A stretch of 64,000 bases of DNA from Patescibacteria group bacterium (GCA_023380635.1 JAMCRP010000002.1:42458-106457); one strand, 5' to 3'; numbered from the stretch's first letter, positions 9,676 through 37,853 are shown. Notes: a model not told the origin generated them from the sequence alone. Program-made: numbers and translations.

Positions 9676-9677
9676 CT

Positions 9678-10299: not shown

Positions 10300-10305
10300 C
10301 TTTTG

Positions 10306-10454: not shown

Positions 10455-11027
10455 ATGGTCTCCAAACTGCCGCCACACAAGTATCTTCTTTCTTACCGTT
10501 ACACAGAATTGACTCATGACGGGACAGTGCAGTTCACGGCAAGGTTTTTAAGCGATATTATCCATCGGCGGACGCGCGAACAGATGGACCAGGCAGCCCG
10601 TTCCGGTAAACAAAATATTGTTGAGGGTTTTGGGCGCGACCTGACTTCGAAAAAAAGCGAGATTACCTTGCTTGATGTTGCCCGGATGTCACTTGAGGAG
10701 CTGACAACTGATTATGAAGATTTTCTAAGACAGAGAAACTTGGCCATTTGGCCAAAAAATGACCCGCGGATAATGAGATTTCGGGAGCTTGGTTTTCGTC
10801 TAAGCAACGAGATAAATTTGGATAAATCAGGCACTTTTAAAGAGAAACTGGCTTTACCTGCTGATTCTGAAGTAGCTGCTAATTTAATGCTAACCTTGTG
10901 CCACCAAGCTTCTTATTTGCTTTTTCGTCAGATCAAGGCGGTGGAAAACCGGCTGATTCAGGAAGGGGGTTATTCGGAAAACCTGTATCGCCGGCGCGAA
11001 GAATTTCGTAGAAATAACCTTAAGTGA
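10455..11027 (+). CDS. four-helix-bundle protein (23S rRNA IVS protein / DGR Avd-like family), long form
   Basis: AARSGKQNIVEGFGRDLTSKKSEITLLDVARMSLEEL matches the family core (R-S-x-SI-x-NI-x-EG-x-GR ... FL-x-IA-x-GS-x-EL). Paralogous to 37211..37813. Confidence 0.7.
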   Translation: MVSKLPPHKYLLSYRYTELTHDGTVQFTARFLSDIIHRRTREQMDQAARSGKQNIVEGFGRDLTSKKSEITLLDVARMSLEELTTDYEDFLRQRNLAIWPKNDPRIMRFRELGFRLSNEINLDKSGTFKEKLALPADSEVAANLMLTLCHQASYLLFRQIKAVENRLIQEGGYSENLYRRREEFRRNNLK

Positions 11028-11084
11028 TAAAATGAGCGTAGCGAATTTTACTAACCGAACGAAAGTGAGGTGTTTAAAATTCAC

Positions 11085-11110
11085 TTAAGGAACTTAAGGC
11101 ACTTAAGTTG
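11085..11110. repeat. tandem 9-bp 'nnnCTTAAG' array (3 units) upstream of tRNA-Arg
   Basis: tcacttaag gaacttaag gcacttaag; ends 6 bp before the tRNA. Confidence 0.75.
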
Positions 11111-11115
11111 GATTT

Positions 11116-11191
11116 GCCCCCATAGCTCAAATGGAAAGAGCAATCCCGTCCTAAGGGAAAGATCTCCGTTCAATTCGGAGTGGGGGTACCA
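11116..11191 (+). tRNA. tRNA-Arg (anticodon CCT), CCA encoded
   Basis: Acceptor gccccca/tgggggt (G1-U72 wobble), D-stem gctc/gagc with loop aaatggaaa, anticodon stem tccc/ggga with loop gtCCTaa, T-stem ctccg/cggag with canonical T-loop ttcaatt, discriminator A plus CCA. Confidence 0.85.
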
Positions 11192-11869
11192 ATGAAAGCA
11201 GAAGTCTTCAAGGTTTTTGTCCTTCGCTGGATCGGAAATTTTCTGGTCCTCTCGGCAGTGGCGGCGGTGGTGCTCACTTTTGCTCCGGCGGTTCAGGCGG
11301 AAATTACTTACCGCGTCAACGTCGCCAGGAATGTTCATTATGTGGTGGCCGGAGATCTACCCCCGGCAAAGTTTGAAACGACCTCTACAAACCTTCTGGC
11401 AAAGTCAGAGACAATTTTAGAAATTAATCCGCTGTCAACAGAGTTTGGAATTGTGATTCCCAAAATCGGGGCCAATGCCAAGGTCATCCCGAATGTCGAT
11501 CCGGGAAACGAAACTGAATACTTGGCCGCCCTAAAAGAGGGTGTGGCCCACGCTGCCGGCACTGTCTTTCCTGGCCAGGTCGGCAACTCTTATCTTTTTG
11601 CCCATTCGGTCGGCAATTTCTGGGAAGTGTCCCGCTGGAACGCAGTGTTTTATTTATTAAAGGAACTGGAGCCGGGTGACGAAGTGGATTTGTTTTACAA
11701 AAATGTCCGTTATGTGTATGTTGTGTATGACAAAAAGGTGGTTGAGCCCGATGATACGCAATATCTTACGACCCAGGCTAACTTTCCGATGCTAACTCTT
11801 CAAACCTGCTGGCCGCCGGGGACAACTCTCAAAAGACTCCTGGTTTTTGGGAGACTGAAGAATATTTAA
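11192..11869 (+). CDS. sortase (transpeptidase) with N-terminal membrane anchor
   Basis: Catalytic LFAHS (His) and TLQTC (sortase TLxTC Cys motif) plus a downstream Arg. The start at 11192 (MKAEVFKV) lies just past the tRNA 3' end; the listed ORF start at 11180 overlaps the tRNA. Confidence 0.8.
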   Translation: MKAEVFKVFVLRWIGNFLVLSAVAAVVLTFAPAVQAEITYRVNVARNVHYVVAGDLPPAKFETTSTNLLAKSETILEINPLSTEFGIVIPKIGANAKVIPNVDPGNETEYLAALKEGVAHAAGTVFPGQVGNSYLFAHSVGNFWEVSRWNAVFYLLKELEPGDEVDLFYKNVRYVYVVYDKKVVEPDDTQYLTTQANFPMLTLQTCWPPGTTLKRLLVFGRLKNI

Positions 11870-11970
11870 GTTACGATAGTAACAATAGTTACGTTAGAGA
11901 AGAAGTTACGAAAGAAATTGTCTTAAAACTTATTGTCACTAATGTAACTGTTGTAACTTTGAGTTTGCCT

Positions 11971-13185: not shown

Positions 13186-13236
13186 GGTATCCTGATTTTA
13201 TCACAGTTGCTATAATGTTCCTAATCGACCCTCTCA

Positions 13237-13345
13237 ATTTGAAATTTACAATTTACAATTTGAAATAAATATCAAATTTGAATTTTTTGAATTTGAAGAA
13301 TTGAAATTTCATTGAAAATTTCAAAGTTCAAATTTCAAATTTTGT
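13237..13345. repeat. A/T-rich 8-bp periodic 'AATTT(G/C)AA' array immediately upstream of mreB
   Basis: caatttgaaatttacaatttacaatttgaaat...gaatttgaagaattgaaatttcattgaaaatttcaaagttcaaatttcaaatttt. Confidence 0.8.
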
Positions 13346-13347
13346 GT

Positions 13348-14481
13348 ATGTTTGGTAAGCGCCTTGGTATCGATCTCGGCACCGCTAACTCTCTGGTTTA
13401 TGTCGTGGACCAGGGAGTTGTGGTTAATGAGCCGACGGTGGTGGCCGTGGCCGTTGACGACGGCAAAGTGCTGGCGGTTGGCAACGAAGCCAAGCAGATG
13501 ATGGGCCGAACCCCAGGAAATATCCGGGCGTCCCGGCCGATGCGCGACGGCGTCATTGCCGATTATATTGTTACCGAGGCAATGCTGCGCTATTTTCTCG
13601 ATCGGGTCTGCGGTTCGACGCGCTTTTTTAAGCCGGAAGTCATGATTTGCGTTCCGGCGGGGGTTACCCAGGTGGAGCGGCGGGCGGTGCTCGACGCGAC
13701 TTTAAGCGCCGGGGCCAAGGTGGCTTATTTAATTGACGAACCGCTGGCAGCGGCCATCGGCGCCAAAATTCCTATTGCCAACCCGAACGGGAACATGATC
13801 GTCGATATTGGCGGGGGCAGCACGGAAGCGGCGGTAATTTCCCTGGGTGGGGTGGTGGTTCACAAAAGTGCTCGGGTGGCCGGAAACAAAATTGACGAGG
13901 CGATTGCCAACTTCATTAAAAAAAAATATAACCTCTTAATCGGGGACACGACAGCGGAGGATATCAAGATTCAGATCGGGACAGCTGTGCCGCTTGGGAA
14001 GTCTCAGTCATCAGTTCTCGGTGGTCGGTTTTCGGAATCTGGTTCGTCAGTTAACCAGTTTTCAGTCCACAAAACTGAAAACAGAAAGACTGAAAAACCG
14101 GAAACTGAAGACAGACAACTGAAAACCGATAGCCGGACCATGGAAGTCCGGGGCCGGGACGCCGCGAGCGGCCTTCCAAGGATCATTGAATTCACTTCTG
14201 ATGAGGTAGTTGAGGCCGTCACACCAATACTTTCGCAAATTGTCACTGCTGTGAAGGGAGTGCTAGAGGAAACGCCCCCGGAATTGGCTTCAGACATAAT
14301 CGATAGGGGAATCGTGCTCAGCGGAGGTACTTCACTCCTTCGAAATTTGGATAAACTGATGACCCATACTATTGGTGTTCCGGTTCATACAGCCGATGAC
14401 CCTCTGTTTTGTGTGGTTAAGGGGTGCGGCATCGCCATGGAGAACATCGATTTATACAAACGGAGCATTAGCAAGAGGTAA
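13348..14481 (+). CDS. mreB: rod-shape-determining protein MreB (actin-like ATPase) with a low-complexity insertion
   Basis: GIDLGTANSLVYV, GVIADY and IDIGGGSTE actin-fold motifs. The listed ORF starts at 13312 inside the A/T repeat; the MreB-like start MFGKRLGIDLG is at 13348. A ~45-aa insertion (SQSSVLGGRFSESGSSVNQFSVHKTENRKTEKPETEDRQLKTDSRT) is encoded by an imperfect palindrome at ~14000-14140. Confidence 0.9.
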   Translation: MFGKRLGIDLGTANSLVYVVDQGVVVNEPTVVAVAVDDGKVLAVGNEAKQMMGRTPGNIRASRPMRDGVIADYIVTEAMLRYFLDRVCGSTRFFKPEVMICVPAGVTQVERRAVLDATLSAGAKVAYLIDEPLAAAIGAKIPIANPNGNMIVDIGGGSTEAAVISLGGVVVHKSARVAGNKIDEAIANFIKKKYNLLIGDTTAEDIKIQIGTAVPLGKSQSSVLGGRFSESGSSVNQFSVHKTENRKTEKPETEDRQLKTDSRTMEVRGRDAASGLPRIIEFTSDEVVEAVTPILSQIVTAVKGVLEETPPELASDIIDRGIVLSGGTSLLRNLDKLMTHTIGVPVHTADDPLFCVVKGCGIAMENIDLYKRSISKR

Positions 14482-14554
14482 CCCATAAGAATCTTCAGTC
14501 GCATTAGAAATTCTAGTTCTATAAACGGCATATTCACGCACGACAAAATGTACT

Positions 14555-14592
14555 CATTTTTGAAAATTTCGAATTTCAAATTTCAAATTGCG
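14555..14592. repeat. A/T-rich 8-bp periodic 'AATTT(G/C)AA' array downstream of mreB
   Basis: gaaaatttcgaatttcaaatttcaaattgcg. Confidence 0.7.
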
Positions 14593-15551
14593 ACTGGCCG
14601 ATAGCCGCGTGGTGGGGGAATGCGGGAAAATTTACCGGAAACTAGATCAAAATGTAGCAAGGGCAAAATTGAAAAAAACGCTTTTTGACCAGAAACCGGT
14701 AATAATTCCCAAAAATCTTCTAAACCCTATAATCTTTTGAAAAATTAAACGCTCTTTTTTGGCTTTTGAAACACCCGGTGGCAGATCTTCCGGCCGGTTT
14801 TGTTTCCTGTCTTTGGCAAAAATCGGAAAACAAAATGAAACAGTGGCAGGGAAGTGTCACAAACATTTAAGAACTGGCGAGAGTCAAGGCCGGTAAAGTA
14901 ACCTTCAAAGACAAAATGTCGAAATCCCTACATTGCCGTCGGTAATGACGGCTTTTCGAAATTAATTTCTCTCTTGCCGAGCCGAAGTTTCGAACGACGG
15001 CCGGCGGGCCACGGTTTTAGACTTCCAATAATTTGGAACCAAGCTTTAAAGCAAGGGGAAGACCTTATAGGACTATCGGTCTATTGTACAGGCGAAATAG
15101 AATTGTCTGTTTGGTGGCTAAAAAACTGCCGGAAAAGGGTTCCAGGTTAAAAGCGGTGACCAAAAAACAACTGAGATAGCCTTAAGATACTCTGATGCAC
15201 TACCATATATTAATATGTGGTCTGTTGCTTTGTCATCCGGCTTAAGGAATTTTTAACTCCAAACTCCAAAAAGACCTGGAACATGATATTTGAAATTTCC
15301 GATTTCCAGGGAATATGGGAGTTCTTTAATTTTTCACGGCTTTTCAGGACCAAGGTTTTTTGCCCGGAAACCCGGGAAAATTTTTCACTGAAGTCAATTG
15401 CTTCTTGACAGTAATCATTATTGTATGACTATACTTAATTAGGTCCCCGGAAGTCCCGGGAAGTCATCGAAAAGCTTGGCCTGAGAAGCTAAAAGCCATA
15501 AACGACGAAAAATTAATCTCTGTCTCAGAACTGATCGTTAAAGCCCGGTTA

Positions 15552-20261: not shown

Positions 20262-20300
20262 AATTTTCAATTTGAAATTTAAAATTTGAAATTAGGTTTG
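20262..20300. repeat. A/T-rich 8-bp periodic 'AATTT(G/C)AA' array between the giant gene 1 stop and the tagA-like start
   Basis: aaattttcaatttgaaatttaaaatttgaaattaggtttgaatt. Confidence 0.75.
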
Positions 20301-20302
20301 AA

Positions 20303-21097
20303 TTGTCTCTAATGAGAAAAGTTGTCTTGGGCGTTAATATTGATGATATTTCGAAAGAAGAAGCCCTTAGTCTGGTCAGTAGTTGGTTAACTGGTAAACT
20401 AGAGACTAGTAAACCAGCGACCAGCAAACTGGTGTTCACTCCCGGGCCGGAGTTTTTAGTAACGGCGGACAAAGACGCGGAATTTAAAAAAGTTTTAAAC
20501 TCTTCAGACTTGAATCTTCCGGACGGTTTTGGGTTAAAACTTTTGGGTGGCGTGGAGCATACCATTGCCGGGGTCGACTTTGTCAGAGTTCTTTGCCAAC
20601 TGGCAGCTAAAAACGGCTGGACTGTCGGCCTGCTGGGCGGACAAACCGGCATTGCCCGGCTGGCGGCTAAAAATTTGCAAAAAAGCTATCCCGGGTTAAA
20701 AGTTACTTTCGCTTTTGACGGGCCCGCAGCTGACAAAATCCTGACACATTCCGACACATTGCCATATAGTGATATTCTGTTTGTAGCCTTTGGACACCCT
20801 GCTCAAGAAAAATTTCTCGCAGAGCAGAAAGCGTCAAGCGTAAAGCGTAAAGAAGGAAGACTTGACGCTAAACGCTTTCCGCTAAACGCCATCCCGTTCC
20901 GCATCGGTATAGGTGTCGGCGGCAGCTTTGATTTTATTTCCGGGACTGTGCCCGAACCGCCGGTTATGTTAAAGAGATTAGGACTAAAATGGTTAGGCCG
21001 GCTTCTGAGCAGGCCGGCTTATATGGCCCCTAAAGTTTTCCGGGCCATTGTTTCTTACCCCCTTTTGATATTGAATTCCCGTCTCTGTAGCCGTTAA
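20303..21097 (+). CDS. WecB/TagA/CpsF-family glycosyltransferase (N-acetylmannosaminyltransferase-like)
   Basis: GVNIDDISKEEALSLV...TPGPEF...DLNLPDGFGLKLLGG...RVLGVDFV...GWTVGLLGGQTGIA...YPGLKV: collinear with the WecB/TagA fold family. Carries an extra SSVKRKEGRLDAKRFPLNAIPFR segment. Confidence 0.7.
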   Translation: MSLMRKVVLGVNIDDISKEEALSLVSSWLTGKLETSKPATSKLVFTPGPEFLVTADKDAEFKKVLNSSDLNLPDGFGLKLLGGVEHTIAGVDFVRVLCQLAAKNGWTVGLLGGQTGIARLAAKNLQKSYPGLKVTFAFDGPAADKILTHSDTLPYSDILFVAFGHPAQEKFLAEQKASSVKRKEGRLDAKRFPLNAIPFRIGIGVGGSFDFISGTVPEPPVMLKRLGLKWLGRLLSRPAYMAPKVFRAIVSYPLLILNSRLCSR

Positions 21098-21227
21098 AAG
21101 TAAAAAGCCTCAGTTTTTTTGGATAGAGCTTTAATGCTTGATGCCTTTGGTTTAGCACTCAAAAAGTGAGAGTGATAGATGGTGTTTTCAGGCTCGAAAA
21201 AATCTATACATTCACCTCATTTTCCCC

Positions 21228-33200: not shown

Positions 33201-35321
33201 CCGGCGCTGGGGCTGGATTATGCCCTAGGCATTAACCCTGCCGGGAGCTTGGTGACCAGTCTGAACGGGACCTCGAACGCCTTGATGGCTATTACCCAGG
33301 ATGGTAAAGTCGGCATCGGGACAACTGCGCCCACGGCTCTTCTTCAGGTTTTTGGTAACGGCACCACTCAGGTGGCCAGTGTCTCGGCTTCTACCGGGAA
33401 AGCGGCTCTTTTGGTTGACAACACCGTTGGCGACCTCTTTACCGCGTCTTCTTCCGGAATGTCCCGGTTTGTGATTACGCAAAGCGGCAACGTCGGCATC
33501 GGGACAACGGGGCCAGGAGATAAACTCCATGTCGCAGGGGGCAATATTATAATTGAAGGATCTGGAGCTGGTGCAAGTCCTCGTGGTATTAAAACCCGTT
33601 ACACATCAAGTGACTCTTATTCTGGTAGTTTAGGTTGGAATGGTCTACAGCTTGGCAATAATGGACCAAATTATATTGTCGCTGGTAATTCAGCAACAGG
33701 TGGAAGTCTGAATTTCATTGTAAATAATTCTAATAGCTTGGGGACTGGAACAGATTATGGGACTGCTAATGGAACAAATGCAATGACAATATTAAGCAGT
33801 GGTAATGTCGGCATCGGGACAACGGGGCCAAATAAATTACTTGATGTATATAAATCTCAAAGCAGTGTCACCGACGAGTCGCAAGCGGCAGCGGCTTTCG
33901 GTGTCACTACGACGGGAGGTATCTATGGATATATCACTCCTAATCAGACTGGAAAAACAGTCACATTCGCTGGAGTTCGAGGCGGTCAGGCTAACGACGT
34001 ATCGCTGCTCTTTAACCCAGCTGGCGGCAACGTCGGCATCGGGACGACGGGACCTTTGGGCAAGTTAGATGTCGGCAACCAAATGTATGTTCAGTCAAAC
34101 GGAACCATCGAGAGTCCAGGCAGCAAGAACACGACTAACGGAATGATTGAAACATACTATAATGCTGGTGACAGATATGGTTTAGGTCAACTTTCCAATG
34201 GAGTAACAGCTTTGTACACATCCGATGCTTACAGCCCCAGCTCAATACAGTTTGGAAGAATAGACAGCAGCAACAATTTCATCTCTCTGATGGATATTAC
34301 CCATGGTGGCAATGTCGGCATCGGGACGACGAGTCCGGGCTATCTTTTAACCGTTAACTCCAGCACCCCAGGCTGCAACGGGTGTACCGCCTGGACAAAC
34401 TACTCTGATATCCGCCTAAAGGAAAACATTGCTTCCGTCTCCGGGGGAATTTTAGACAAAATTTTGCAACTAAACCCGGTGACTTTTAACTACAACGACA
34501 CCTACTATACCCAAACGGGTTATTCCCGCCCTGATGGCCAAACACCAACTTACACTGGCTTTATTGCCCAGCAGTTGCAAACGATTTTTCCGGAAATGGT
34601 TTCCACCTCCAGTAATGGTTATCTTGACACCAACCTTTCCAACTTGCAGATCTATCTGGTTAAAGGTATGCAGGAACAACAGGGAGAAATTGCTTCCCAG
34701 TCAGCCCAAATTGCCACCATGTCGGCCACACTTTCGGCCTGGAACGACCTTCTGGGGACCCCCTCAGCCTCTTTAGCCGAGTCTGTCGCCCGCCTAGACG
34801 GGTTATCAGCCGATATTTCCTCTTTAATGGCCGATAACCTCCAGATTAAATCCGATATCCAGCTTCTTAAAGAGCAAATGGCCACAGTTTCGGCTAACTT
34901 GGCTCAGGTTTCTTCCCAAACCGCTTCCAATTCCGCTTCTCTGGCTTCCTTAAGTCCCTTAAGTAACTTAAGCATCTTAAGTGATCTGGAAGTCTCGACG
35001 GTTTCGGCTTCCTTTGCCAACTTTTCTGACACTCTCAAGGTCGTGGGCAAGACCCAGCTGGCTGATACTAACATCGGGGGCAGCTTGACCGTGGGGTTGC
35101 TGCACTTTGACGATTTGAAAGCGGAGATATCCAGCTTAACCGGCACGGTTACCATTAACAGCAATTTGCAGGTGGCCGGAGACGCCACGGTGTCGGGAAC
35201 GCTCAAAACCGCCACGGCAGAAACTGACGGAATCAGTCTTAAAGATGAGGTGACGGGGGATTACTATTGTATTCGGATGCACAGTGGCGAGATTGCCAAA
35301 ACCCCCGGGAAATGCCAGTAG
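21228..35321 (+). CDS. giant membrane-anchored fibre-like protein (4697 aa): 2x MerR-type HTH, single TM, tail-fibre-like repeats, 2x ConA/LamG-like lectin domains, C-terminal peptidase-S74 intramolecular-chaperone domain
   Basis: Two N-terminal copies of LLKIGDAAKFLNVSIQTLRRWDESGKLKPVVTPGGTRFYEKQAL (MerR/HTH_17 pattern IGExAKxxGVSxxTLRxYExxGLLxPxRxxxGYRxY). TM helix identical to giant gene 1. Seven GNVGIGTT(S/G)P-type motifs. LamG/ConA-like jelly-roll domains at ~28.12-28.73 kb and ~31.46-32.15 kb (AWSFGAWFKTT...NWHFGVVTYDG...KIYADGQL). S74 domain at ~34.40-34.69 kb (SDIRLKENI...LNPVTFNYN...TGFIAQQLQTIFPEMV...YLDTNLSNLQIYLVKGMQEQQ). The start is ambiguous: TTG at 21228 or GTG at 21267. Confidence 0.85.
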   Translation: MTNLFKSPHTDYAVKKSTDAGLLKIGDAAKFLNVSIQTLRRWDESGKLKPVVTPGGTRFYEKQALKNIRVGNGVRETDGTGEMKSEQQVTKKTGKFSKRGLVKIGTAAKLLGISIPTLRRWDEMGKLRAVVSPGGTRLYSKDSLAAINPALSEYKILKSEEPEIKPAKQFIKEVVSEVLHQQKAVLQLPPPVNPIQTISEWSQEPVHYRAETEAGRIAGYFQKPPPEDTRNKIQETRETPNTRKKRSWKSFAYTLPAVLATILLLLTTGLNIYITSYQKKVASDRNLQAVLAESSSQNFLDIRADTDVSGRLTVWGKDVLTEATLASSSPYLSNLNQSLSTTATPTFANLTLTAGKIVLEDKTQTLKNKSLSGSDNTFSNIPNSALANSKVTVTAGTNLTGGGDVVLGDSTTIGLKDNISVTSVTSSALTVNGDAAITGNLNVGGGLQFSSLAVTGTSGTAPVASISGKTSFAAVVVDNSGSGDLFTASTAGQPRFTVNSNGDLLPGITSHQSIGSPTQVWDTIYANNLSGTNWSGNIIGTQYGGTGQDWHLTAQGNVPYFSASGTMNTLAPGTNHQVFVTQGVGANPKWEDLVNLLTPGTDITLGGTNVVTINDASTLQSVTGRGAATTNPITLNLTGGNAYFGSGNASALVDLSSTSKGFLTPRMTQAQRDAISTPAPGLLIYNTDTNQFNVYNSSTWGAIAGAGAAYWGDNIGALYPLYLNSDLLIGSDATASALIRLEGTTGYITANRINGNKIATGSGNVAVSATLPLAVDTNGNMTLAYTSNLKVTSSQLDTAQNIGPSASPQFVSLTLGSGTTGTLQTAALTGSRTWTLPDNTGEICTTYGNCIGGVGGSVGGSGTNTKIAMFTPDGTHIGDSHITDTGTQIQFFNTSNYIDSSGNFYLNGSLFASGNEAGFWQRQSGVLAPKNITDSLIIGGNATGSGQLQVYGLNSQMPVASISAQTPWAALVVDNATGDLFTASSSGMTRFTVGNTGNLTAGTYNTATITGGSLSATAVNGVATANILTTGTTFAGDVGGSYNNLAIGTGKVTNPMLSGPVDTTHGGTGNDWHLTAQGNVPYFSAAGTMGLLAPGTASQVLTTGGGGADPAWTNMASLVTGAGNITVTGTQTLSINTVNNPTFSTSVTTPLLTNSGNLLINPTGNVGIGTTSPAALLSVGTNSDLRVNGTGDIVARTYNGNIIATGSGTLTLGSASLNIGTGGTLNTGAYADISLYAPLASPTFTGTVTIPTSFVLGATTVTTTGTQLNYLNAATGTTGNTNSNLVFSNGPTLTSPAFSTIVNVGTLTLPTTSDTLVGRATTDTFTNKTFDTAGTGNILRINGTQVSAVTGTGSVVLASAPTISNPIITNINPGADFTLTQNSVTPFISYNSGALANTLVLSAGSVGIGVTNPGAKLDVAGAASISGILTLNNGVTTQINATNDRSLDLGFANTGRVNFLTTSSYIDANGNFSTNGQIQVGSFASAPTALGAGSMYYNSTENRLYAYNGTNWSPLGEQSTVVVTNNSGTTLNPKDLVIFDSSANNAVTTTTTAYKKGVVYGVVVDASCASGATNCKVQISGKVDVSVTNSNAAKGDYVFTSTTAAKGVTSAKLFDGLIGIVTDNTNAGSGYVTIIFQPQAQVLAGVVMDKISRHNDYKIYSNIYTPINEGSVFSPNLTARGISFDNFLDQTKVDAALTTVGSTMSAQIQSPTAQTSAPFRMGLTGGQTYNTTNTDNAGNAYLGSNTVNKVFYYDRTRDSIPQVQVELGIDPNWYNGVTLSVASTSAQFSQADTITKPNPNLSTAYNGSLVKVSGTYPTQAATRTIYLTITSPTQFTWSDGAVGANNVSINPGVSQALGTTGVSVTFTNVKYNPGDVFRIASWVVEPASSTRGSKAQFPERSYVIGTASSVDIIDADTNKLWMRFTINATSWAVTTMLIDASSSVTALNGTIYSSQGASGLLKIVFDRDTGFGFTTDWTNYGGTFRGGIAQRNTQNGYAQNVPLNIVNNTVNDISAAVIPNQPTQTVTTSGWGYMYLNAAGSNYEVVNLPYKFNDIPKVVISASAERATAPTNYGDCSWGISTNFVANTYSATTSNFGATIATPGSGTTTGYICYTWTATGVVSPRQYVAVGTNQGVTVINETDQSGVNYSTVSSGDHNVGSVFLTSNDNLYFSYPWSYPTDVKVAVQYGVAGVTSNVAWDSWSGNYASIGNSWSNKGPTPLQSSTNYQIFVTSGTSTIDGKSNTIYVSGSNGLTVIQEKQAGRFGTAESYVPSDENNGSVKYYTKDYISEEMVGDIRGMWPLNGTLSDASVKGNTLTDGGIAFGTGVRGQGAVISGLSFLYCTDASCGGTSKLDSGGTAWSFGAWFKTTSTGGTIISKYNGGVSGAYFLAVDGSGKLSGDIEQSPYTFTGNKIVNDGNWHFGVVTYDGVSAKIYADGQLDSLVAMTGNIPDTTANFAIGARYTGGSVSNILLGSIDEPFVSATALTANQIKHMYEVGARALQSHSASLGGGAADANQKLGTNVASVSAAAVDYNNQFMYVGANDSTNGGVSKIDLNSDTNIRTIQTANTPVGGTVLPAKTVSSLAAGYNLEVVGTGTGAIGMAPDDNANNLSGTLYSKTLTTPESFSQAYIWSQQVTDAADAANTVTVWASNDGGSNYYQCNQTNTDSTQTPTEYEYFCQFNAVGSSLKIKEVFARGSTKTNTYVTRYGVAWIDSSNAIGSNPLGNGMYTNNATVADSSYLEVAHNQNTADAVANAWISSESKWKQLDATYKPVAAYDGLSGVLSEYHDLAANYKTGDLVSTPSGILFDTFKDITKTASAASTLSLDFGKNRVGLMGGQTFNTTNTDSDGNALLGSNTVNKVFYYDRINKDSSPQVQVELGVDPNWYNGVTLSVATTSAQMSQSETTVPAGKNPNLSTTYNGSLVKVTGTYATTAAARPIWITISDNSSFVWTDYNGNGGTASLQQGVTQALGSTGVSVTFTGTKYNIGDVFKIASWFVEKPSATRGSKQQFPERSYVVATAASVDIIDADTNKLWMRFTGADGNIIHFPTGFTYNVPSVTALNGTLYAGIQRTNGAWGNLTSVYFSRDSSSGITSGSTFPYPGVISQRNSALGYPLALSTVTIANSYVNDVSAAVIPNQPTQTVTVSGWGYIQGNGSTPYVSETVNFPYKFNNLPVVNINFSGGTSTTAPTKLSDCAANWRVEAHAESIGNNSFTAKTALTETGDGNTSATGYYCYTWTATGQVSPRQYVGVATNGGATLINETDQSAVNYGDTAQFSRIALTSKSHMYIARDSNVGEIRVFNNAAGLGAGFSSDMLLFPTSSCTNQPCYLAEAAGGNGHGPTSLFVTDGTSTVNGSADTVYVGTAVGLSVFQLNNTNANLGDGQGEIQSSSVKYYTKDYISEEMVGDIRGMWPFNGSGAITQNSTTFTDASVKADPLVSKGTGAAYASGVRGTGVSLNGTNDYFCPNGGSGSTCTDVSSLKITGNSISVGAWMKSSATCSVFQDVISKEDNTTGNSWRITMDSGNHARFDTTFAPVYGVAATGTTNICDGKWHYLVGVYNNGDTQKIYVDGRLEGTGAAQSATVRDVTAPVAVGAEFNNGTPGNYFKGTIDEPFVTATTLSANQIKHMYEVGARALQSHSASLGGGAADKNQQLAGAAGNPTNLVKAVGVDYNNQYMYVSNSEAGLNQNNGGVSKIDLNSDTNVYTYKNGSTPAQLDSEISSLAVGYNLEAMSSTASGVLNPGIDAFASATSGSFFSNTYVLPKPIASAVIWTSAYKDTADSGSTQTIKASVDGGSTYATCNLLSTDYNPATPERAYGCEFAASGQNLKVEFDLARTSVKSNNYVSQYGITWLGQNGFRVEQTNNNTVRLYNYSGESANVRLDVITGGLGRNAGTISLAPSAADVDAQNNSNSLWINKTGAGGNLLKLQVSGADKLTLDANGLMTLTGNFVPGADNTYDLGASSSARFRNLYLGPGSLHIQSKSTDTGYPALGLDYALGINPAGSLVTSLNGTSNALMAITQDGKVGIGTTAPTALLQVFGNGTTQVASVSASTGKAALLVDNTVGDLFTASSSGMSRFVITQSGNVGIGTTGPGDKLHVAGGNIIIEGSGAGASPRGIKTRYTSSDSYSGSLGWNGLQLGNNGPNYIVAGNSATGGSLNFIVNNSNSLGTGTDYGTANGTNAMTILSSGNVGIGTTGPNKLLDVYKSQSSVTDESQAAAAFGVTTTGGIYGYITPNQTGKTVTFAGVRGGQANDVSLLFNPAGGNVGIGTTGPLGKLDVGNQMYVQSNGTIESPGSKNTTNGMIETYYNAGDRYGLGQLSNGVTALYTSDAYSPSSIQFGRIDSSNNFISLMDITHGGNVGIGTTSPGYLLTVNSSTPGCNGCTAWTNYSDIRLKENIASVSGGILDKILQLNPVTFNYNDTYYTQTGYSRPDGQTPTYTGFIAQQLQTIFPEMVSTSSNGYLDTNLSNLQIYLVKGMQEQQGEIASQSAQIATMSATLSAWNDLLGTPSASLAESVARLDGLSADISSLMADNLQIKSDIQLLKEQMATVSANLAQVSSQTASNSASLASLSPLSNLSILSDLEVSTVSASFANFSDTLKVVGKTQLADTNIGGSLTVGLLHFDDLKAEISSLTGTVTINSNLQVAGDATVSGTLKTATAETDGISLKDEVTGDYYCIRMHSGEIAKTPGKCQ
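26270..32790. repeat. diverged internal tandem duplication (~3.1-3.4 kb unit x2) within giant gene 2
   Basis: Copy A ~26270-29390 and copy B ~29640-32790 are collinear at protein level (G(I/L)(S/L)FD-x-F-x-D-x-TK ... NTVNKVFYYDR ... QVQVELG(I/V)DPNWYNGVTLSVA ... SSVKYYTKDYISEEMVGDIRGMWP ... HMYEVGARALQSHSASLGGGAAD ... VDYNNQ-x-MYV ... GGVSKIDLNSDTN). There is a 56-nt exact DNA match at 28075-28130 versus 31417-31472. Confidence 0.85.
34938..34985. repeat. in-frame tandem 9-bp 'nnnCTTAAG' array inside giant gene 2
   Basis: tcccttaag taacttaag catcttaag tgatctgga encoding SLSPLSNLSILSDLE; the same unit family as the intergenic arrays at 9.7, 10.4, 11.1 and 38.8 kb. Confidence 0.7.
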
Positions 35322-35365
35322 AATTTGAAATTTGAAATTTACAATTTGAACTGAATTTGCAATTT
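35322..35365. repeat. A/T-rich 8-bp periodic 'AATTT(G/C)AA' array between the giant gene 2 stop and an avd-like gene
   Basis: gaatttgaaatttgaaatttacaatttgaactgaatttgcaatttaaatg. Confidence 0.75.
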
Positions 35366-35367
35366 AA

Positions 35368-35733
35368 ATGCCTCAATTTAAAAATAACTATGATTTAGAA
35401 GAGAGGACGGTTCGGTTCTCCGAGAGTCTTGTAGATTTTCTGAAGGCGTGTCCAAAAACAGTAATTACTATTCCTTTAATTGATCAAGGACTGCGAGCGG
35501 GAACCAGTATTGGGGCTAACTATCGGGAAGCAAACGGAGCTTCTTCTAAAAAGGATTTTAAAAACAAAATATTTATTTGTAAAAAGGAGGCAAAAGAGAC
35601 AATCTATTGGTTAAGATTGTTAGGCAGAGTGCTAGGTGATGGTAATCTGAAACAAAAGTGCAGAAACTTATACCAAGAAGCCAGCGAATATGTCTTAATT
35701 TTCGGAAAAATTGCCAGTAGTTGTAGAGAATAG
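35368..35733 (+). CDS. four-helix-bundle protein (Avd-like / 23S rRNA IVS protein family), canonical short form
   Basis: LRAGTSIGANYREANGASSKKDFKNKIFICKKEAKETIYWLRLL is the textbook family signature (R-x-G-x-SI-x-AN-x-x-EA ... KDF ... KEA-x-ET-x-YWL-x-LL). Confidence 0.8.
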   Translation: MPQFKNNYDLEERTVRFSESLVDFLKACPKTVITIPLIDQGLRAGTSIGANYREANGASSKKDFKNKIFICKKEAKETIYWLRLLGRVLGDGNLKQKCRNLYQEASEYVLIFGKIASSCRE

Positions 35734-35754
35734 TTTAAAAACTTAAAATTGATT

Positions 35755-35800
35755 AAGTGAATATTAATTTCAAATTTTAAATTGTAAATTTCAAATTGGA
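35755..35800. repeat. A/T-rich 8-bp periodic 'AATTT(G/C)AA' array upstream of the GalT-like gene
   Basis: attaatttcaaattttaaattgtaaatttcaaattgg. Confidence 0.75.
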
Positions 35801-35802
35801 GT

Positions 35803-36672
35803 ATGGCCAAATTTGTTCCCGATATTAAAACCAACCGCTGGGTGGTGATTGCCCCGGCCAGAATTTCCCGGCCGCATGACAACACTCCGTTTGCCGTCCA
35901 GGCGCCTCAGGCGCCGGTCTGTCCCTTTTGCCCGGGGCAGGAAAGTCTGAACAAAGAACTATTTAGAGTCGGCGATCCTTGGAAAGTCCGGGTCATTGCT
36001 AATAAGTATCCGATAACCGATTATCACGAGGTCATTATCCATTCTCCGGATCATACTCACGACCTGGATACTTTGCCCATCAACCAGGTGGAGTTAATCC
36101 TAACCACCTACCGGCAGCGTTATAACTTCCATAAAAATTCGGAGCATGACGGCCAGGTGATGATTTTTAATAATCATGACATTCACGCCGGGGCGAGTCT
36201 CGCGCACCCACATTCCCAAATTGTGGTTGTTCCCAAGCAAATTAACCTGGATACCGTTCAGAAGGAGCCGGTCCAAAATGAAGTGGTCAGAACAAACTTT
36301 TTTGTGGCTTATTGTCCGGATTTTTCCCAGTGGCCCTACGAAATTTGGATTGCGCCATTAATCGAAGGCAAAAATTACGGCGAAATTTCCGACGAGGAAA
36401 TCAAGGATCTGGCGCCATTAATGCAAAAGCTTATCGGGTTTATTAATAATAAATTCAAAGAAGAGGTTAAGCTTCACCAGCCGATGGAAAAGTCGGACGA
36501 AACGGGGGAGACGCCTTACAATTATTATATTTACCACGGCCAGGACTGGTATCTGCGTATTATTCCCAGACTGGTTCACCGGGCGGGATTTGAGTTGGGA
36601 ACAGGGCTCTCTGTAAATATAATTGACCCGAGTGTTGCGGCGCGGGAGTACCGAGAGGGAATTGCGTCCTGA
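35803..36672 (+). CDS. GalT-like HIT-superfamily nucleotidyltransferase (galactose-1-phosphate uridylyltransferase-like)
   Basis: N-terminal zinc knuckle CPFCPG and His-x-His motif AHPHSQIVVVP (GalT HPH-type active site); ~290-aa two-half HIT-like layout. Confidence 0.6.
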   Translation: MAKFVPDIKTNRWVVIAPARISRPHDNTPFAVQAPQAPVCPFCPGQESLNKELFRVGDPWKVRVIANKYPITDYHEVIIHSPDHTHDLDTLPINQVELILTTYRQRYNFHKNSEHDGQVMIFNNHDIHAGASLAHPHSQIVVVPKQINLDTVQKEPVQNEVVRTNFFVAYCPDFSQWPYEIWIAPLIEGKNYGEISDEEIKDLAPLMQKLIGFINNKFKEEVKLHQPMEKSDETGETPYNYYIYHGQDWYLRIIPRLVHRAGFELGTGLSVNIIDPSVAAREYREGIAS

Positions 36673-36828
36673 TTGCGAGCGAATGAAATGAGCATGGCAA
36701 TCTCATAAGATTGGGGCACTACAGATTGTCAGTACAGCATTGATAGCAGTAAATGTTACTCGGATTTAAGAGGCCTCTTATTCTATGAGATCGCCACACT
36801 CTTCGGGCTCGCGATAACGAAGTAGCTA

Positions 36829-36858
36829 TTGACAAGCCGTGTACACCTTTGATATAAC
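36829..36858 (+). promoter_or_regulatory. sigma-70-type promoter for the excisionase-like HTH gene
   Basis: TTGACA(36829-36834), an 18-nt spacer, then an extended -10 TGaTATAAC(36850-36858), about 24 nt upstream of the ATG at 36882. Confidence 0.55.
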
Positions 36859-36881
36859 CGGACACAGTAAATCATATTCTC

Positions 36882-37088
36882 ATGCCTGGGCTTAATCAAA
36901 ATATCTCAATCGAAAACTTACCCGATCTTCTGACCGTCAAAGAAGTCGCCCAACTTCTTCGCGTTTCTGTCCTTACCATCAAACGCTGGGGCAAAAGAGG
37001 AAAATTGCCCGCCATCCGCATTAATTCAAGAGGGGACAGACGATATAAGAAAGAGGCGGTTTTGTGGCTATTGGGAATGGGTAAATAA
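36882..37088 (+). CDS. excisionase/MerR-superfamily HTH (HTH_17-type) DNA-binding protein
   Basis: LLTVKEVAQLLRVSVLTIKRWGKRGKLPAIRINSRGDRRYKKEAV is the same HTH type as the N-terminal modules of giant gene 2. Confidence 0.7.
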   Translation: MPGLNQNISIENLPDLLTVKEVAQLLRVSVLTIKRWGKRGKLPAIRINSRGDRRYKKEAVLWLLGMGK

Positions 37089-37191
37089 TCCAACTCTTCA
37101 CGCAAGCTCTTTCTTGCGATCCTCCTTCACTTTGCTCAGTCCGGGTCTAAAAAAGGAGGCGGTTCTTTGGTTGCTCGGTATGGGTAAGTAA
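37047..37191. repeat. duplicated gene 3' end: the last 13 codons plus stop of the HTH gene recur ~65 bp downstream with synonymous changes only
   Basis: aag aaa gag gcg gtt ttg tgg cta ttg gga atg ggt aaa taa (37047-37088) versus aaa aag gag gcg gtt ctt tgg ttg ctc ggt atg ggt aag taa (~37150-37191). Both translate to KKEAVLWLLGMGK*. The spacer carries the hairpin cgcaag-ctcttt-cttgcg (37101-37118). Confidence 0.8.
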
Positions 37192-37210
37192 AACCTGCTA
37201 CTATAAATTA

Positions 37211-37813
37211 GTGGCAAAAGCTGGTTTCGAATATCTTCTTGCCTACAAAATCACGGTGCCGATCTACGATTACACTGTGGCTTTCTGCAATTGTTACCCG
37301 CCGTTAGCTCCTAATCATCCTAATTTCTCCAATTTTTCCTATCCTCGTCTCTCTTCAACCCGAACCTATGACCAAATGATTCAGTCGGCACGGTCGGGGA
37401 TGACTAATTTGGCTGAAGGTCATCAGCAGCAAAGCCTTGAAGGCTATATTAAACTTTCAGGAGTTAACAGAGCCTCATTAGAAGAACTTTTAAAAGATTA
37501 TTTAGCTTTTGCCAGACAGAACCATCTAGAGGTCTGGCCAAAAGAGAGATCAAGAAGAGAAATTCGAGAAATTGGAGAAATATGGGGAATCTTAACAAGA
37601 ACTTCGACACTGCCGGACAACCCAAATTTTCCGCCGCTTCCAAACGACCCAACCAAAGCGGCGAATTTTATGATTACTCTGATTAATCAAGCCAATTACC
37701 TGCAGGATCGTTTGAATCTTGCTTTAGAAGACAAATTTGTTAAGGAAGGCGGTTTTCGGGAGAATCTTTTCAAAAAACGGATGGCTTACCGCAATAAAAA
37801 AAGTCCCGCTTAA
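37211..37813 (+). CDS. four-helix-bundle protein (Avd-like family), long form; paralogue of 10455..11027
   Basis: MIQSARSGMTNLAEGHQQQSLEGYIKLSGVNRASLEELLKDYLAF and C-terminal EGGFRENLFKKRMAYRNKK; collinear with the 10455 gene (EGGYSENLYRRREEFRRN). Confidence 0.7.
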   Translation: MAKAGFEYLLAYKITVPIYDYTVAFCNCYPPLAPNHPNFSNFSYPRLSSTRTYDQMIQSARSGMTNLAEGHQQQSLEGYIKLSGVNRASLEELLKDYLAFARQNHLEVWPKERSRREIREIGEIWGILTRTSTLPDNPNFPPLPNDPTKAANFMITLINQANYLQDRLNLALEDKFVKEGGFRENLFKKRMAYRNKKSPA

Positions 37814-37826: not shown

Positions 37827-37853
37827 TAATTACTCTTATTGCTCTAATTGCTC

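What the first reader, a model, noticed from the sequence alone, without database searches (positions are those of the whole stretch)
10455..37813. Three Avd-like four-helix-bundle genes without a reverse transcriptase in the window, two of them at the 3' end of the giant gene
ORFs 35368-35733, 10455-11027 and 37211-37813 carry the four-helix-bundle signature (R-x-G-x-SI-x-AN/NI-x-EG ... KEA-x-ET / GS-x-EEL). This family includes the DGR accessory protein Avd and proteins encoded in 23S rRNA intervening sequences. Two copies flank the excisionase-type HTH gene directly downstream of the giant gene, a placement reminiscent of DGR target/accessory arrangements. However, no RT ORF (no YxDD motif) is present in any frame here, and the giant-gene 3' repeats do not show A-specific mismatches. 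These are therefore either orphan or stand-alone Avd-like proteins with another role, or part of a DGR whose RT/TR lies outside the window. The two long forms (190 and 200 aa) with conserved EGG(Y/F)(S/R)ENL(Y/F)(R/K)(R/K)R C-termini are paralogues.
Basis: partly seen in the sequence, partly recalled or inferred. Interest (0 to 1): 0.55.

Follow-up and report, generated by a model that had tools for sequence, protein, structure and literature searches.

The report
Small helix-bundle genes with repeat arms
Three small genes first read as orphan parts of a mutagenic retroelement are stand-alone relatives of the unexplained proteins encoded inside ribosomal-RNA intervening sequences, and each sits among short tandem repeats in an arrangement that recurs across many bacteria.

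Summary
The three ORFs are real and belong to the four-helix-bundle / 23S-rRNA-IVS-protein family (TIGR02436). The two long ones also carry the curated "suffix" domain (TIGR04258), and NCBI already names all three this way. Nothing points to a diversity-generating retroelement. The window has no RT domain, no YxDD frame and no adenine-biased repeat pair. No match to the BPP-1 DGR RT was found beside about 160 homologues. Phage Avd does not score against their profiles.

The short gene lies in a 476-bp cassette (35322-35797) bounded by inverted arrays of four to five AAATTT+N heptads. Relatives in unrelated operons keep such arms: arrays are 32-fold enriched at their flanks, arms are inverted in 63 of 72 loci, and arm units co-vary. 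The suffix family carries period-9 arrays, 41-fold enriched across phyla. The 190-aa copy sits between tRNA-Pro and tRNA-Arg in eight other genomes and is about as conserved as MreB.

This matches the ORF-bearing 23S rRNA IVS of Coxiella, which has a terminal stem, heptamer repeats and RNase III excision. Best reading: IVS-type cassettes outside rRNA. The mechanism (arm pairing, RNase III cleavage, the ring protein binding its repeats) is inferred, not shown.

The parts
35322..35797 (+). Whole short-form cassette (476 bp): left heptad arm, 121-aa ORF, right heptad arm. It fits exactly between the giant gene's stop codon (35319-35321) and the GGAG ribosome-binding site of the next gene.
   Evidence: Sequence reading. 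Flank conservation across five copies in four unrelated contexts ends at these borders. The RNA MFE and centroid folds both pair the two arms around the ORF, z -2.59.
35322..35364 (+). Left arm: about 4 tandem heptads of AATTTGA type (palindromic AAATTT plus 1 variable nt).
   Evidence: Inverted repeat I9, 43 nt, 81% complementary to the right arm. TRF period 7, 4.1 copies.
35368..35733 (+). 121-aa four-helix-bundle protein (short form, S23p / 23S-rRNA-IVS-protein family), pI 9.3.
   Evidence: TIGR02436 at 67.2 bits and PF05635 at 52 bits. PDB 2RLD at E 6e-13. NCBI name 'four helix bundle protein'. dN 0.22-0.45 with saturated dS.
35755..35797 (+). Right arm: about 4.6 tandem heptads of AATTTCA type, the inverse complement of the left arm.
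10305..10377 (-). tRNA-Pro(CGG), the conserved upstream neighbour of the 190-aa gene.
   Evidence: ARAGORN and Rfam. Found in 7 of the 8 closest loci, upstream on the opposite strand in 6.
10404..10444 (+). Upstream nonamer array (CTTAAG + NNN, about 3.7 copies). It overlaps a possible promoter (TTGCTT-17-TAAGAT) and an AAGGAG ribosome-binding site.
   Evidence: TRF period 9. Sequence reading; the promoter and RBS are my reading only.
10455..11027 (+). 190-aa four-helix-bundle protein with suffix domain, pI 9.5.
   Evidence: TIGR04258 at 55.7 bits and TIGR02436 at 29.6 bits. AF2 model pLDDT 90.8, with best folds 2GSC and 2RLD. 53-60% identical in 8 syntenic genomes, comparable to MreB.
11081..11109 (+). 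Downstream nonamer array (ACTTAAGGA type, 2.8 copies). It contains the exact reverse complement (cttaaggcacttaag) of an upstream 15-mer.
   Evidence: TRF. Sequence reading. Period-9 detector.
11116..11191 (+). tRNA-Arg(CCT), 88 nt after the stop codon on the same strand, probably co-transcribed.
   Evidence: tRNA-Arg lies 11-54 nt downstream in all 8 closest loci.
37211..37813 (+). 200-aa four-helix-bundle protein with suffix domain (paralogue of the 190-aa gene), pI 9.3.
   Evidence: TIGR04258 at 56.0 bits and TIGR02436 at 26.3 bits. 37% identity to the 190-aa form. Orthologues at 61-77% identity sit in unrelated contexts.
37555..37584 (+). Period-9 array inside the 200-aa ORF (GAGAAATTC, 2.8 copies, encoding REIREIGEI).
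   Evidence: TRF. Period-9 detector.
37803..37820 (.). GC-rich hairpin GTCCCGC-TTAA-GCGGGAC overlapping the stop codon, between the convergent 200-aa gene and rplL. Probable bidirectional terminator.
   Evidence: Sequence reading only. The consensus terminator scan did not flag it.
37824..37860 (+). Downstream nonamer array (CTCTAATTG, 3.9 copies).
   Evidence: TRF. Period-9 detector.
20262..20304 (+). ORF-less heptad array at the paralogous position: right after the stop of the 1569-aa gene, whose 3' end is homologous to the giant gene's. A candidate 'empty' counterpart of the short cassette.
   Evidence: Repeat families D5, D6 and D8. Pattern search.
13236..13341 (.). ORF-less inverted heptad arrays of the same AAATTT+N family (arms 20 nt apart). 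Similar arrays lie at 14564-14593, 38256-38322 and 54113-54219.
   Evidence: Inverted repeat I14. 29 pattern matches against 0.03 expected. The 54108-54224 hairpin has z -4.4.

Best explanation
The three ORFs are stand-alone members of the S23p / 23S-rRNA-intervening-sequence protein family. One is canonical and two carry the C-terminal suffix domain. They are not DGR Avd proteins. The short gene and the 190-aa gene are each bracketed by short-period tandem arrays with palindromic cores: AAATTT+N heptads for the short form and CTTAAG+NNN nonamers for the 190-aa form. The 200-aa gene has period-9 arrays only inside and downstream of its ORF. The bracketing arms lie in inverted orientation, so in a transcript they can pair into a stem about four to five repeat units long that encloses the ORF. 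This is the anatomy of the ORF-bearing 23S rRNA IVS of Coxiella and Leptospira, here placed between protein-coding genes and between two tRNA genes rather than inside rRNA. Proposed working: the cassette is transcribed with its host operon or with tRNA-Arg; the arms pair; RNase III cuts the duplex and frees the small mRNA without destroying the neighbouring cistrons. The basic, ring-forming protein then binds the four to five repeat units of its own arms, much as TRAP binds tandem triplets or Avd binds a stem-loop, to control that processing or its own expression. Over long times the cassette moves between intergenic sites. Shown here: family membership, no match to the BPP-1 DGR RT near the window or about 160 homologues, arm anatomy, arm complementarity and covariation, specificity of period 7 or 9, context diversity, and purifying selection on the protein. 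Inferred: RNA-level pairing in vivo, RNase III cleavage, protein-repeat binding, and any mobility mechanism.
For: Family. No DGR. Cassette: the flanks of five short-form copies in four unrelated contexts align up to sharp borders. In 72 metagenome and genome loci, 70 upstream and 71 downstream flanks hold period-7 tandems. Such arrays occur at 8.26 per kb within 110 nt of the ORF against 0.26 per kb elsewhere. Own-arm duplexes average -28.5 kcal/mol against -21.7 for cross pairs (0 of 10,000 permutations). Arms are inverted in 63 of 72 loci (p 1.5e-9). The 3' unit is the exact reverse complement of the 5' unit in 26 of 62 loci against 7.5 expected (0 of 5000 permutations). Copy number is narrow, with a median of 4.4. 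Synonymous sites are saturated while dN is 0.2-0.45, so neutral flanks should have decayed; they have not, which argues the arms are selected. The fold of 35310-35810 pairs the arms in both the MFE and the centroid structure. Contexts are diverse (81 clusters from 121 neighbour ORFs) and co-directional (54 of 58 upstream, 54 of 63 downstream). Within type IV pilus operons the cassette occupies different junctions in different genomes. Suffix family: period-9 arrays at 2.86 per kb in the flanks against 0.070 per kb elsewhere (41-fold). Periods 6-8 show none; period 10 rests on a single flank array. These arrays are also seen in a finished Prevotella replicon. Precedent: the Coxiella IVS is 428 nt, with a 28-bp terminal stem cut by RNase III, the S23p ORF in the loop, and tandem heptamers before the start codon; the Xanthomonas S23p is a pentameric toroid (PMC4990558). 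Avd is a basic pentamer that binds an RNA stem-loop (bioRxiv 10.1101/2023.10.23.563531). All three window proteins are basic, pI 9.3-9.5.
Against: There is no expression, RNA-end or binding data. The stems are almost pure A-U and thermodynamically modest: the window fold has z of only -2.6, and several ORF-less arrays do not fold better than shuffles. Own-arm against cross-arm differences could partly reflect genome-specific repeat dialects rather than element-specific compensation. For the suffix family, inverted pairing of the flanks is not better than direct pairing overall (31 of 75 loci, p 0.12), so there the arrays may act as tandem binding sites rather than as a stem. Only 25 of 80 loci pass the strict array detector. 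The 200-aa gene has arrays only inside and downstream of the ORF, and four orthologue loci show none by eye. The 190-aa gene is syntenic and about as conserved as MreB, which fits a housekeeping role better than a selfish cassette. In Coxiella the S23p ORF is thought to be untranslated and decaying, unlike here. No empty and filled orthologous site pair was recovered.
Confidence: 0.5

Rival explanations
1. DNA-level mobile cassette. The repeat arms are transposon-like ends with multiple binding sites in inverted orientation. The four-helix-bundle protein is the element's own DNA-binding mobility factor, and ORF-less arrays are internally deleted, MITE-like derivatives.
For: The same ORF-plus-arms unit occurs in many unrelated intergenic sites. 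ORF-less arrays of the same family lie elsewhere in the window, including at the paralogous site after the 1569-aa gene and one in frame inside ArgRS. Multi-copy subterminal repeats in inverted orientation are typical of transposon ends (general knowledge). Ralph and McClelland proposed that the IVS ORF serves mobility (cited in PMC4990558).
Against: The protein has no recognisable nuclease, recombinase or transposase fold. No target-site duplications were seen at the cassette borders. All copies compared have saturated synonymous divergence, so there is no sign of recent transposition. The 190-aa copy is stably syntenic.
Confidence: 0.2
2. Ordinary conserved host genes. These are small nucleic-acid-binding proteins with a housekeeping role, for example in stable-RNA metabolism. 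Their flanking arrays are simply their promoter, operator or terminator signals, with no cassette behaviour and no RNase III step.
For: The 190-aa protein is 53-60% identical across eight syntenic genomes, comparable to MreB and far above ArgRS or NDK. It sits 11-88 nt upstream of tRNA-Arg in all nine genomes. The upstream nonamer array can be read as a -35/-10 promoter plus Shine-Dalgarno. Purifying selection is strong in all three groups.
Against: This does not explain why short-form and 200-aa-type orthologues at 63-81% identity occupy unrelated operons, nor why they sit at different junctions of the same operon type. It does not explain why the 3' arm mirrors the 5' arm. No sigma-70-like promoter is predicted on the + strand in the short gene's left arm.
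Confidence: 0.2
3. Accessory (Avd) genes of a diversity-generating retroelement whose RT and template repeat lie outside the window, possibly targeting the giant surface-protein gene.
For: The family is related to Avd at fold level, and PF05635 is the commonest Pfam family near DGR RTs (PMC10053308). DGRs are common in CPR bacteria (general knowledge). The short gene directly follows a giant surface-protein gene, and that placement recurs.
Against: The window has no RT, no YxDD frame and no A-biased repeat pair. There is no RT in 8.3 kb beyond the left edge. No match to the BPP-1 DGR RT near about 160 homologue loci. bAvd does not match either profile. Avd genes normally sit beside their RT (Wu et al. 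2018, from memory).
Confidence: 0.04
4. Components of an anti-phage defence or toxin-antitoxin system.
For: Some suffix-family homologues neighbour type I R-M genes: clusters I read as HsdS and HsdM, by eye from their sequences, in 6 loci each. JGI labels two homologues 'restriction system protein'. Family members occur in cas loci (PMC3936711). The repeat cores are restriction-site-like palindromes (CTTAAG, AAATTT, CCTAGG).
Against: None of the three proteins has a PADLOC hit. In the window their neighbours are housekeeping genes. No partner gene is conserved, and the neighbour clusters are diverse.
Confidence: 0.05

Closest known systems
ORF-bearing 23S rRNA intervening sequences (Coxiella burnetii, Leptospira; S23p ORF)
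   Same: Same protein family (PF05635 / TIGR02436). Similar element size (428 nt against 476 bp). Terminal inverted repeats that enclose the ORF. Tandem heptamer repeats next to the start codon. ORF-less short versions coexist. Embedded in, and transcribed with, a host transcription unit (PMC4990558).
   Different: The window cassettes lie between protein-coding genes and between two tRNA genes, not in helix 25 or 45 of 23S rRNA, and the window has no rRNA. Both arms here consist of the tandem repeats. The ORFs are under strong purifying selection, whereas the Coxiella ORF is reported as decaying and probably untranslated. RNase III cleavage is shown there and only inferred here.
DGR accessory variability determinant (Avd, Bordetella phage BPP-1; PDB 4DWL)
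   Same: Small, basic four-helix-bundle protein of the same superfamily. Avd is a pentamer that binds an RNA stem-loop (bioRxiv 10.1101/2023.10.23.563531). pI values are similar, 9.3-9.5 against 9.55.
   Different: No RT, TR or VR. No detectable sequence similarity to bAvd. bAvd lacks the conserved S and N of the R..S...N..E motif (my reading of the sequence). Avd is not known to be flanked by tandem arrays.
TIGR04258 'four helix bundle suffix domain-containing protein' (NCBIfam)
   Same: Both long ORFs match above cut-off, and NCBI names the identical proteins this way.
   Different: The held literature records no function or flanking-repeat association for this family. The period-9 array association measured here is not in the model's name or in any paper found.
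TRAP (trp RNA-binding attenuation protein) and its tandem-triplet RNA site: a working analogy only
   Same: A ring-shaped homo-oligomer that recognises as many short tandem repeats, separated by variable spacers, as it has subunits (textbook knowledge). Here the family has a presumed pentameric ring, and the arrays hold four to five units of a 6-nt core plus 1-3 variable nt.
   Different: Unrelated fold. No binding data for any IVS-family protein. The oligomeric state of these three proteins was not tested.
REP/BIME, ERIC and MITE-type intergenic palindromes
   Same: Short palindromic repeats dispersed in intergenic regions of operons, sometimes within coding DNA. ORF-less copies are frequent.
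   Different: Those elements are not built of 7- or 9-nt tandem units and do not carry a four-helix-bundle ORF in their loop.

Membership tests
Four-helix-bundle / 23S rRNA IVS protein family (TIGR02436, PF05635) | Sequence match to the family HMM above the curated cut-off | tested here: met
   TIGR02436: 67.2, 29.6 and 26.3 bits against a cut-off of 24. PF05635: 52 bits for the short form (cut-off 33.8); the long forms are below it at 28.5 and 25.8.
Four-helix-bundle / 23S rRNA IVS protein family (TIGR02436, PF05635) | Four-helix-bundle fold like 2GSC and 2RLD | tested here: met
   The short form hits 2RLD by sequence at E 6e-13. The AF2 model of the 190-aa form (pLDDT 90.8) has 2GSC (prob 1.00, TM 0.81 on the target) and 2RLD as best PDB folds, although the Foldseek E-values are weak at 0.08-0.9.
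Four-helix-bundle / 23S rRNA IVS protein family (TIGR02436, PF05635) | Homopentameric toroid | not testable with these tools
   Only monomer prediction is available. The pentamer is known for Xcc0516 and Avd (PMC4990558; bioRxiv 10.1101/2023.10.23.563531).
TIGR04258 four-helix-bundle suffix family | C-terminal ~49-aa suffix domain above cut-off, following a TIGR02436-like region | tested here: met
   55.7 and 56.0 bits against 40 for the 190- and 200-aa ORFs; absent from the 121-aa ORF.
Classical 23S rRNA intervening sequence (IVS) element | Inserted in a 23S rRNA helix (helix 9, 25 or 45) | tested here: not met
   No rRNA in the window by Rfam or by blastn with the E. coli rrn operon. No rRNA beside 160 homologue loci.
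Classical 23S rRNA intervening sequence (IVS) element | Terminal inverted repeats able to form a stem enclosing the ORF | tested here: met
   Short form: 43-nt arms, 81% complementary, paired in the MFE and centroid folds, and generalised to 63 of 72 loci. 190-aa form: an exact 15-nt inverted match within the nonamer arrays. 200-aa form: not evident.
Classical 23S rRNA intervening sequence (IVS) element | Excision from the transcript by RNase III | not testable with these tools
   Needs RNA-end mapping or an in vitro cleavage assay.
DGR accessory protein Avd | Encoded next to a DGR-clade reverse transcriptase | tested here: not met
   No RT in the window or 8.3 kb to its left. No match to the BPP-1 DGR RT near about 160 homologues. 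The rest of the genome could not be searched.
DGR accessory protein Avd | Template and variable repeat pair with adenine-specific differences | tested here: not met
   Self-BLAST of the window: no repeat pair shows A-specific mismatches.
DGR accessory protein Avd | Sequence relationship to characterised Avd | tested here: not met
   bAvd scores -1.8 bits against the long-form HMM. hhalign against the short-form profile gives probability 0.3%.
Anti-phage defence systems (PADLOC) | Match to a defence-system protein model | tested here: not met
   No hits for the three proteins. Only the neighbouring HTH protein resembles mad1.

The most novel reading that the evidence does not exclude
Four-helix-bundle (S23p / IVS-protein) genes and their flanking 7- or 9-nt tandem arrays form one widespread, so far undescribed kind of genetic cassette, of which the classical rRNA intervening sequences are only the best-known special case. 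In this reading a ring-shaped protein recognises the repeat units of its own arms, with subfamily-specific periodicity (heptads for the short form, nonamers for the suffix form). It thereby controls RNA excision or spread of the cassette through operons, tRNA spacers and rRNA genes across many bacterial phyla.
Probability: 0.3. Interest if true: 0.8.

Novelty: new variant of a known kind. Interest (0 to 1): 0.6.

Why it matters
The purpose of the ORFs inside bacterial rRNA intervening sequences, and of the thousands of 'four helix bundle protein' genes scattered through bacterial genomes, has been open since the early 1990s. The only characterised relative is the DGR protein Avd. If these genes generally travel with subfamily-specific tandem-repeat arms, the question becomes testable in two ways: does the protein bind its own repeats, and are the arms cut out of operon transcripts? 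It would also explain why the same family turns up in rRNA, in tRNA spacers, in cas and restriction operons and behind giant surface-protein genes. In CPR bacteria, one paralogue is about as conserved as MreB and fixed between two tRNA genes, which flags a probable core function in a lineage with very few characterised genes. For annotation, the practical lesson is that an Avd-like hit without an RT should not be read as a DGR remnant.

Tried and rejected
1. DGR. I searched for RT domains by Pfam on 31 further ORFs (including the giant gene), by a YxDD motif scan and by tblastn with bRT. I searched for TR/VR pairs by self-BLAST with per-base mismatch counts. All were negative, so this is rejected for the window.

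2. rRNA-embedded IVS. No rRNA was found in the window or beside the homologues.

3. Defence or phage origin. PADLOC and PHROGs gave no hits for the three proteins, and the phage collection gave no tblastn match.

4. Direct sequence link among short form, long form and bAvd. BLASTP and hhalign were not significant, probably because my alignments have low diversity (Neff about 2). The link rests on the curated HMMs and the fold.

5. General tRNA association. Only the closest orthologue group of the 190-aa gene is tRNA-flanked. The other suffix-family loci sit near background.

6. Conserved HTH and 4HB gene pair. None of the four orthologue contexts of the 200-aa gene has the HTH neighbour.

7. 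Arm pairing for the suffix family as a whole. It was not better than the direct-orientation control, so the stem model is claimed only for the short family and the CPR 190-aa group.

8. dN/dS ratios. They could not be computed because dS is saturated; only the qualitative conclusion is used.

9. Extending the window. The right-edge protein is not on record, and the 174.7-kb NCBI contig could not be fetched.

10. A column-wise covariation count on an alignment of the arms was not attempted. Tandem units make the register ambiguous, so I used permutation tests on duplex energy and on unit identity instead.

Full report
**What is there**

The window is a housekeeping chromosomal stretch of a Patescibacteria (CPR, Microgenomates-like) bacterium. 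It holds LeuRS, ComEC, ArgRS, an M16 peptidase, NDK, sortase, MreB, the NusG-L11-L1-L10-L7/L12 cluster, SOD and others. The three ORFs named in the finding exist as described. NCBI already holds identical proteins from a 174,714-bp contig, named 'four helix bundle protein' (121 aa) and 'four helix bundle suffix domain-containing protein' (190 and 200 aa).

**Family membership**

All three pass the curated cut-off of TIGR02436. Only the short one passes Pfam PF05635. The long forms are 37% identical paralogues. The short form is tied to them only through the family models.

The short form matches PDB 2RLD by sequence. A confident AlphaFold model of the 190-aa form (pLDDT 90.8) has the IVS-family structures 2GSC and 2RLD as best folds, and no Avd entry appears among the 50 hits listed. 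No further copy is hidden in the window.

**No DGR**

- Pfam scans of 31 further ORFs, including the giant gene, show no reverse transcriptase.
- No [YF]xDD motif lies in any open frame of 150 aa or more, and no internal repeat pair has adenine-biased mismatches.
- tblastn with the Bordetella phage RT finds nothing in the window. It also finds nothing in 80 suffix-family loci with 10-kb flanks or about 80 short-form loci with 2.5-kb flanks. That query is a single divergent RT and was run without a positive control.
- 8.3 kb beyond the left edge holds only metabolic genes.
- Phage Avd itself does not score against either profile.
- The proteins match no PADLOC or PHROG family.

'Avd-like' is true only at superfamily level.

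**The short-form cassette**

The new information is in the flanks. The short gene lies between two 43-nt arms (35322-35364 and 35755-35797) that are inverted repeats of each other. Each is made of about four tandem heptads: a palindromic AAATTT plus one variable base. The unit fills the whole gap between the giant gene's stop codon and the next gene's ribosome-binding site.

Close homologues (63-81% identical) sit in quite different places: after another giant LamG gene, twice in a type IV secretion operon, and between pilB and pilT. The spacing is about the same in each case. An alignment of these copies shows that the flanks are conserved up to sharp borders and not beyond.

A metagenome scan gave 80 more loci. 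The measurements on them are:

- Of 72 loci with both flanks, 70 have period-7 tandems upstream and 71 have them downstream.
- Such arrays are 32 times denser within 110 nt of the ORF than in the rest of the same loci.
- The heptad unit differs between loci, but the 3' arm follows the 5' arm. Own-arm duplexes are more stable than cross-locus pairs (-28.5 against -21.7 kcal/mol; 0 of 10,000 permutations).
- Arms are inverted rather than direct in 63 of 72 loci (p 1.5e-9).
- The 3' unit is the exact reverse complement of the 5' unit in 26 of 62 loci against 7.5 expected.
- Arrays hold a narrow four to five units.
- Neighbouring genes fall into 81 clusters and are nearly always co-directional. 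Within pilus operons the cassette sits at different junctions in different genomes. Thirteen neighbour ORFs (in about 12 of the 72 loci), mostly upstream, are a C-terminus homologous to the window's giant protein.
- Synonymous sites between copies are saturated while dN is 0.2-0.45. The protein is therefore under strong purifying selection and the copies are old, which implies that the arms too are maintained by selection or homogenisation.
- As RNA, the window cassette folds with the arms paired around the ORF in both the MFE and centroid structures (z -2.6).

**The long forms**

The 190-aa gene lies between tRNA-Pro (opposite strand) and tRNA-Arg (same strand, 88 nt downstream). All eight closest genomic relatives have tRNA-Arg 11-54 nt downstream. 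Seven also have a nearby tRNA-Pro, upstream on the opposite strand in six.

Across those genomes the protein is 53-60% identical. That is comparable to MreB (61-68%) and far more conserved than ArgRS (26-33%), NDK or the PEGA protein from the same syntenic blocks.

It is bracketed by CTTAAG+NNN nonamer arrays that include an exact 15-nt inverted match, and most of its closest orthologues show similar nonamer arrays next to the start or stop codon.

Across 80 suffix-family loci from many phyla, period-9 arrays are 41-fold enriched in the 100-nt flanks and 7-fold enriched inside the ORF. Periods 6-8 are not enriched, and period 10 rests on one flank array. The units vary by lineage: CTTAAG-type in CPR, and GGACCTATA, GGTCCTTTA or CCTAGG-type elsewhere. 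A finished Prevotella replicon shows seven such nonamers after its annotated suffix-domain gene.

For this family the flanks do not pair better in inverted than in direct orientation overall. The arrays may therefore act as tandem sites rather than a stem.

The 200-aa gene has a nonamer array inside the ORF and one downstream. Its orthologues (61-77% identical) lie in unrelated contexts: between giant LamG genes next to a GIY-YIG gene, after a giant gene, after topA, and after a DUF3276 gene.

**Comparison with what is known**

The Coxiella burnetii 23S rRNA IVS is described as follows (PMC4990558):

- an S23p ORF of this same family in the loop;
- tandem heptameric repeats just before the start codon;
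- ORF-less IVSs are common elsewhere, and a homologous S23p (Xanthomonas Xcc0516) is a pentameric toroid.

In CPR bacteria, family members are scattered among rRNA insertion sites (bioRxiv 10.1101/2024.02.27.582315). Elsewhere they interrupt cas operons (PMC3936711). Avd is a basic pentamer that binds an RNA stem-loop (bioRxiv 10.1101/2023.10.23.563531). The window proteins are similarly basic.

The window cassettes therefore have the anatomy of ORF-bearing IVSs but sit outside rRNA. No paper in the searchable library describes the repeat association or any function for the suffix family. That is absence from this library, not proof of novelty.

**Best explanation and its limits**

I read these as IVS-type cassettes. 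They are co-transcribed with the host unit. Their arms can pair into an RNase III-type duplex that would release the small mRNA. Their ring-forming basic protein probably recognises the four to five repeat units of the arms.

The anatomy, statistics and family placement are shown. RNA pairing in vivo, cleavage, protein-repeat binding and mobility are inferred.

Against the model:

- The stems are A-U rich and modest, and several ORF-less arrays do not fold better than shuffles.
- Part of the arm covariation could be a genome-specific repeat dialect.
- The suffix family does not show a stem signal.
- The 190-aa gene behaves like a fixed core gene.

The rivals are a DNA-level mobile cassette, an ordinary host gene with array-type regulatory signals, a remote DGR, and a defence role. 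They are scored in their own section.

**Verdict**

The genes themselves are already known and named, so the finding as written is ordinary. The subfamily-specific tandem-repeat arms and the IVS-like cassette anatomy outside rRNA are a new variant of a known kind. They make an old question experimentally approachable.

Noticed in passing
window 7334-7405 (inside the ArgRS gene, 5914-7650): An in-frame palindrome built of heptads: GACTACN x4, a 14-nt loop, then NGTAGTC x4. It encodes GLQTTDYRLQKNNKTVDSSQWSVV. As RNA it forms a near-perfect hairpin (-33.1 kcal/mol, z -6.98). The encoded linker is about 10 residues longer than in four syntenic ArgRS homologues. It looks like an ORF-less repeat-arm element tolerated inside a coding region.
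   Followed up: partly
window 37050-37088 and 37150-37190: The last 13 codons plus the stop of the excisionase-type HTH gene (KKEAVLWLLGMGK*) recur as a diverged second copy 60 nt downstream, ending 20 nt before the 200-aa gene's start. This suggests a past rearrangement or insertion at this junction. The HTH and 4HB adjacency is not conserved in four orthologue loci.
   Followed up: partly
window 21228-35321 and 15552-20261: The 4697-aa giant protein has two N-terminal MerR/HTH_17 domains, two Laminin_G_3 domains and a C-terminal Peptidase_S74 (endosialidase chaperone) domain. Its 5' part (93% identical over 667 nt) and its 3' part (77%) are shared with the upstream 1569-aa gene. Homologous C-termini are the commonest neighbour of short-form cassettes elsewhere (13 neighbour ORFs, in about 12 of the 72 loci).
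   Followed up: partly
window 13236-13341, 14564-14593, 20262-20304, 38256-38322, 54113-54219; also 43246-43305: ORF-less arrays of the same AAATTT+N heptad family lie in other intergenic spacers, including between rplJ and rplL. There are 29 pattern matches against 0.03 expected by chance. The array at 54108-54224 folds as a hairpin (z -4.4). A separate inverted pair of 8-mers (ATTGTTAC / TAGCAATG) lies at 43246-43305 (z -4.15). Their function is unknown.
   Followed up: partly
window 2386-2427 (LeuRS), 14071-14126 (MreB 3' part), 16197-16264 and 21906-21942 (both giant genes), 34946-34974 (giant gene, CTTAAG nonamers): Period-7 and period-9 tandem arrays also occur inside coding sequences. 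The 'LSNLSNLS' stretches in CPR suffix-family proteins are plausibly the in-frame translation of CTTAAG-type nonamers (my reading, not checked at DNA level).
   Followed up: no
window 9675-9719; locus L177: A five-copy CTTAAG nonamer array lies between the M16 peptidase and NDK genes. An independent short-read assembly of the same organism (Logan SRR10278331) ends at window position about 9702, inside this array, so these arrays may fragment assemblies.
   Followed up: no
L084 4679-4969: A 96-aa GIY-YIG (homing-endonuclease-type) gene sits 32 nt upstream of a 200-aa-type homologue. The pair is wedged between two giant Laminin_G_3 genes in a 1.23-Mb contig.
   Followed up: no
L003-L082 (suffix-family loci from many phyla): Recurrent same-strand neighbours outside CPR, named by eye from representative sequences rather than by HMM, include DnaK-like (12 loci), UvrA-like (11), and HsdS- and HsdM-like type I restriction genes (6 each). 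The family is 40-60% identical between distant phyla, which suggests horizontal spread.
   Followed up: partly
window 36882-37088: The 68-aa HTH_17/excisionase-type protein scores 42.6 bits against the PADLOC mad1 model, and it matches BldC-family and MerR models. It is preceded by a good sigma-70-like promoter by my reading (TTGACA-17-TATAAC at about 36830-36858).
   Followed up: no
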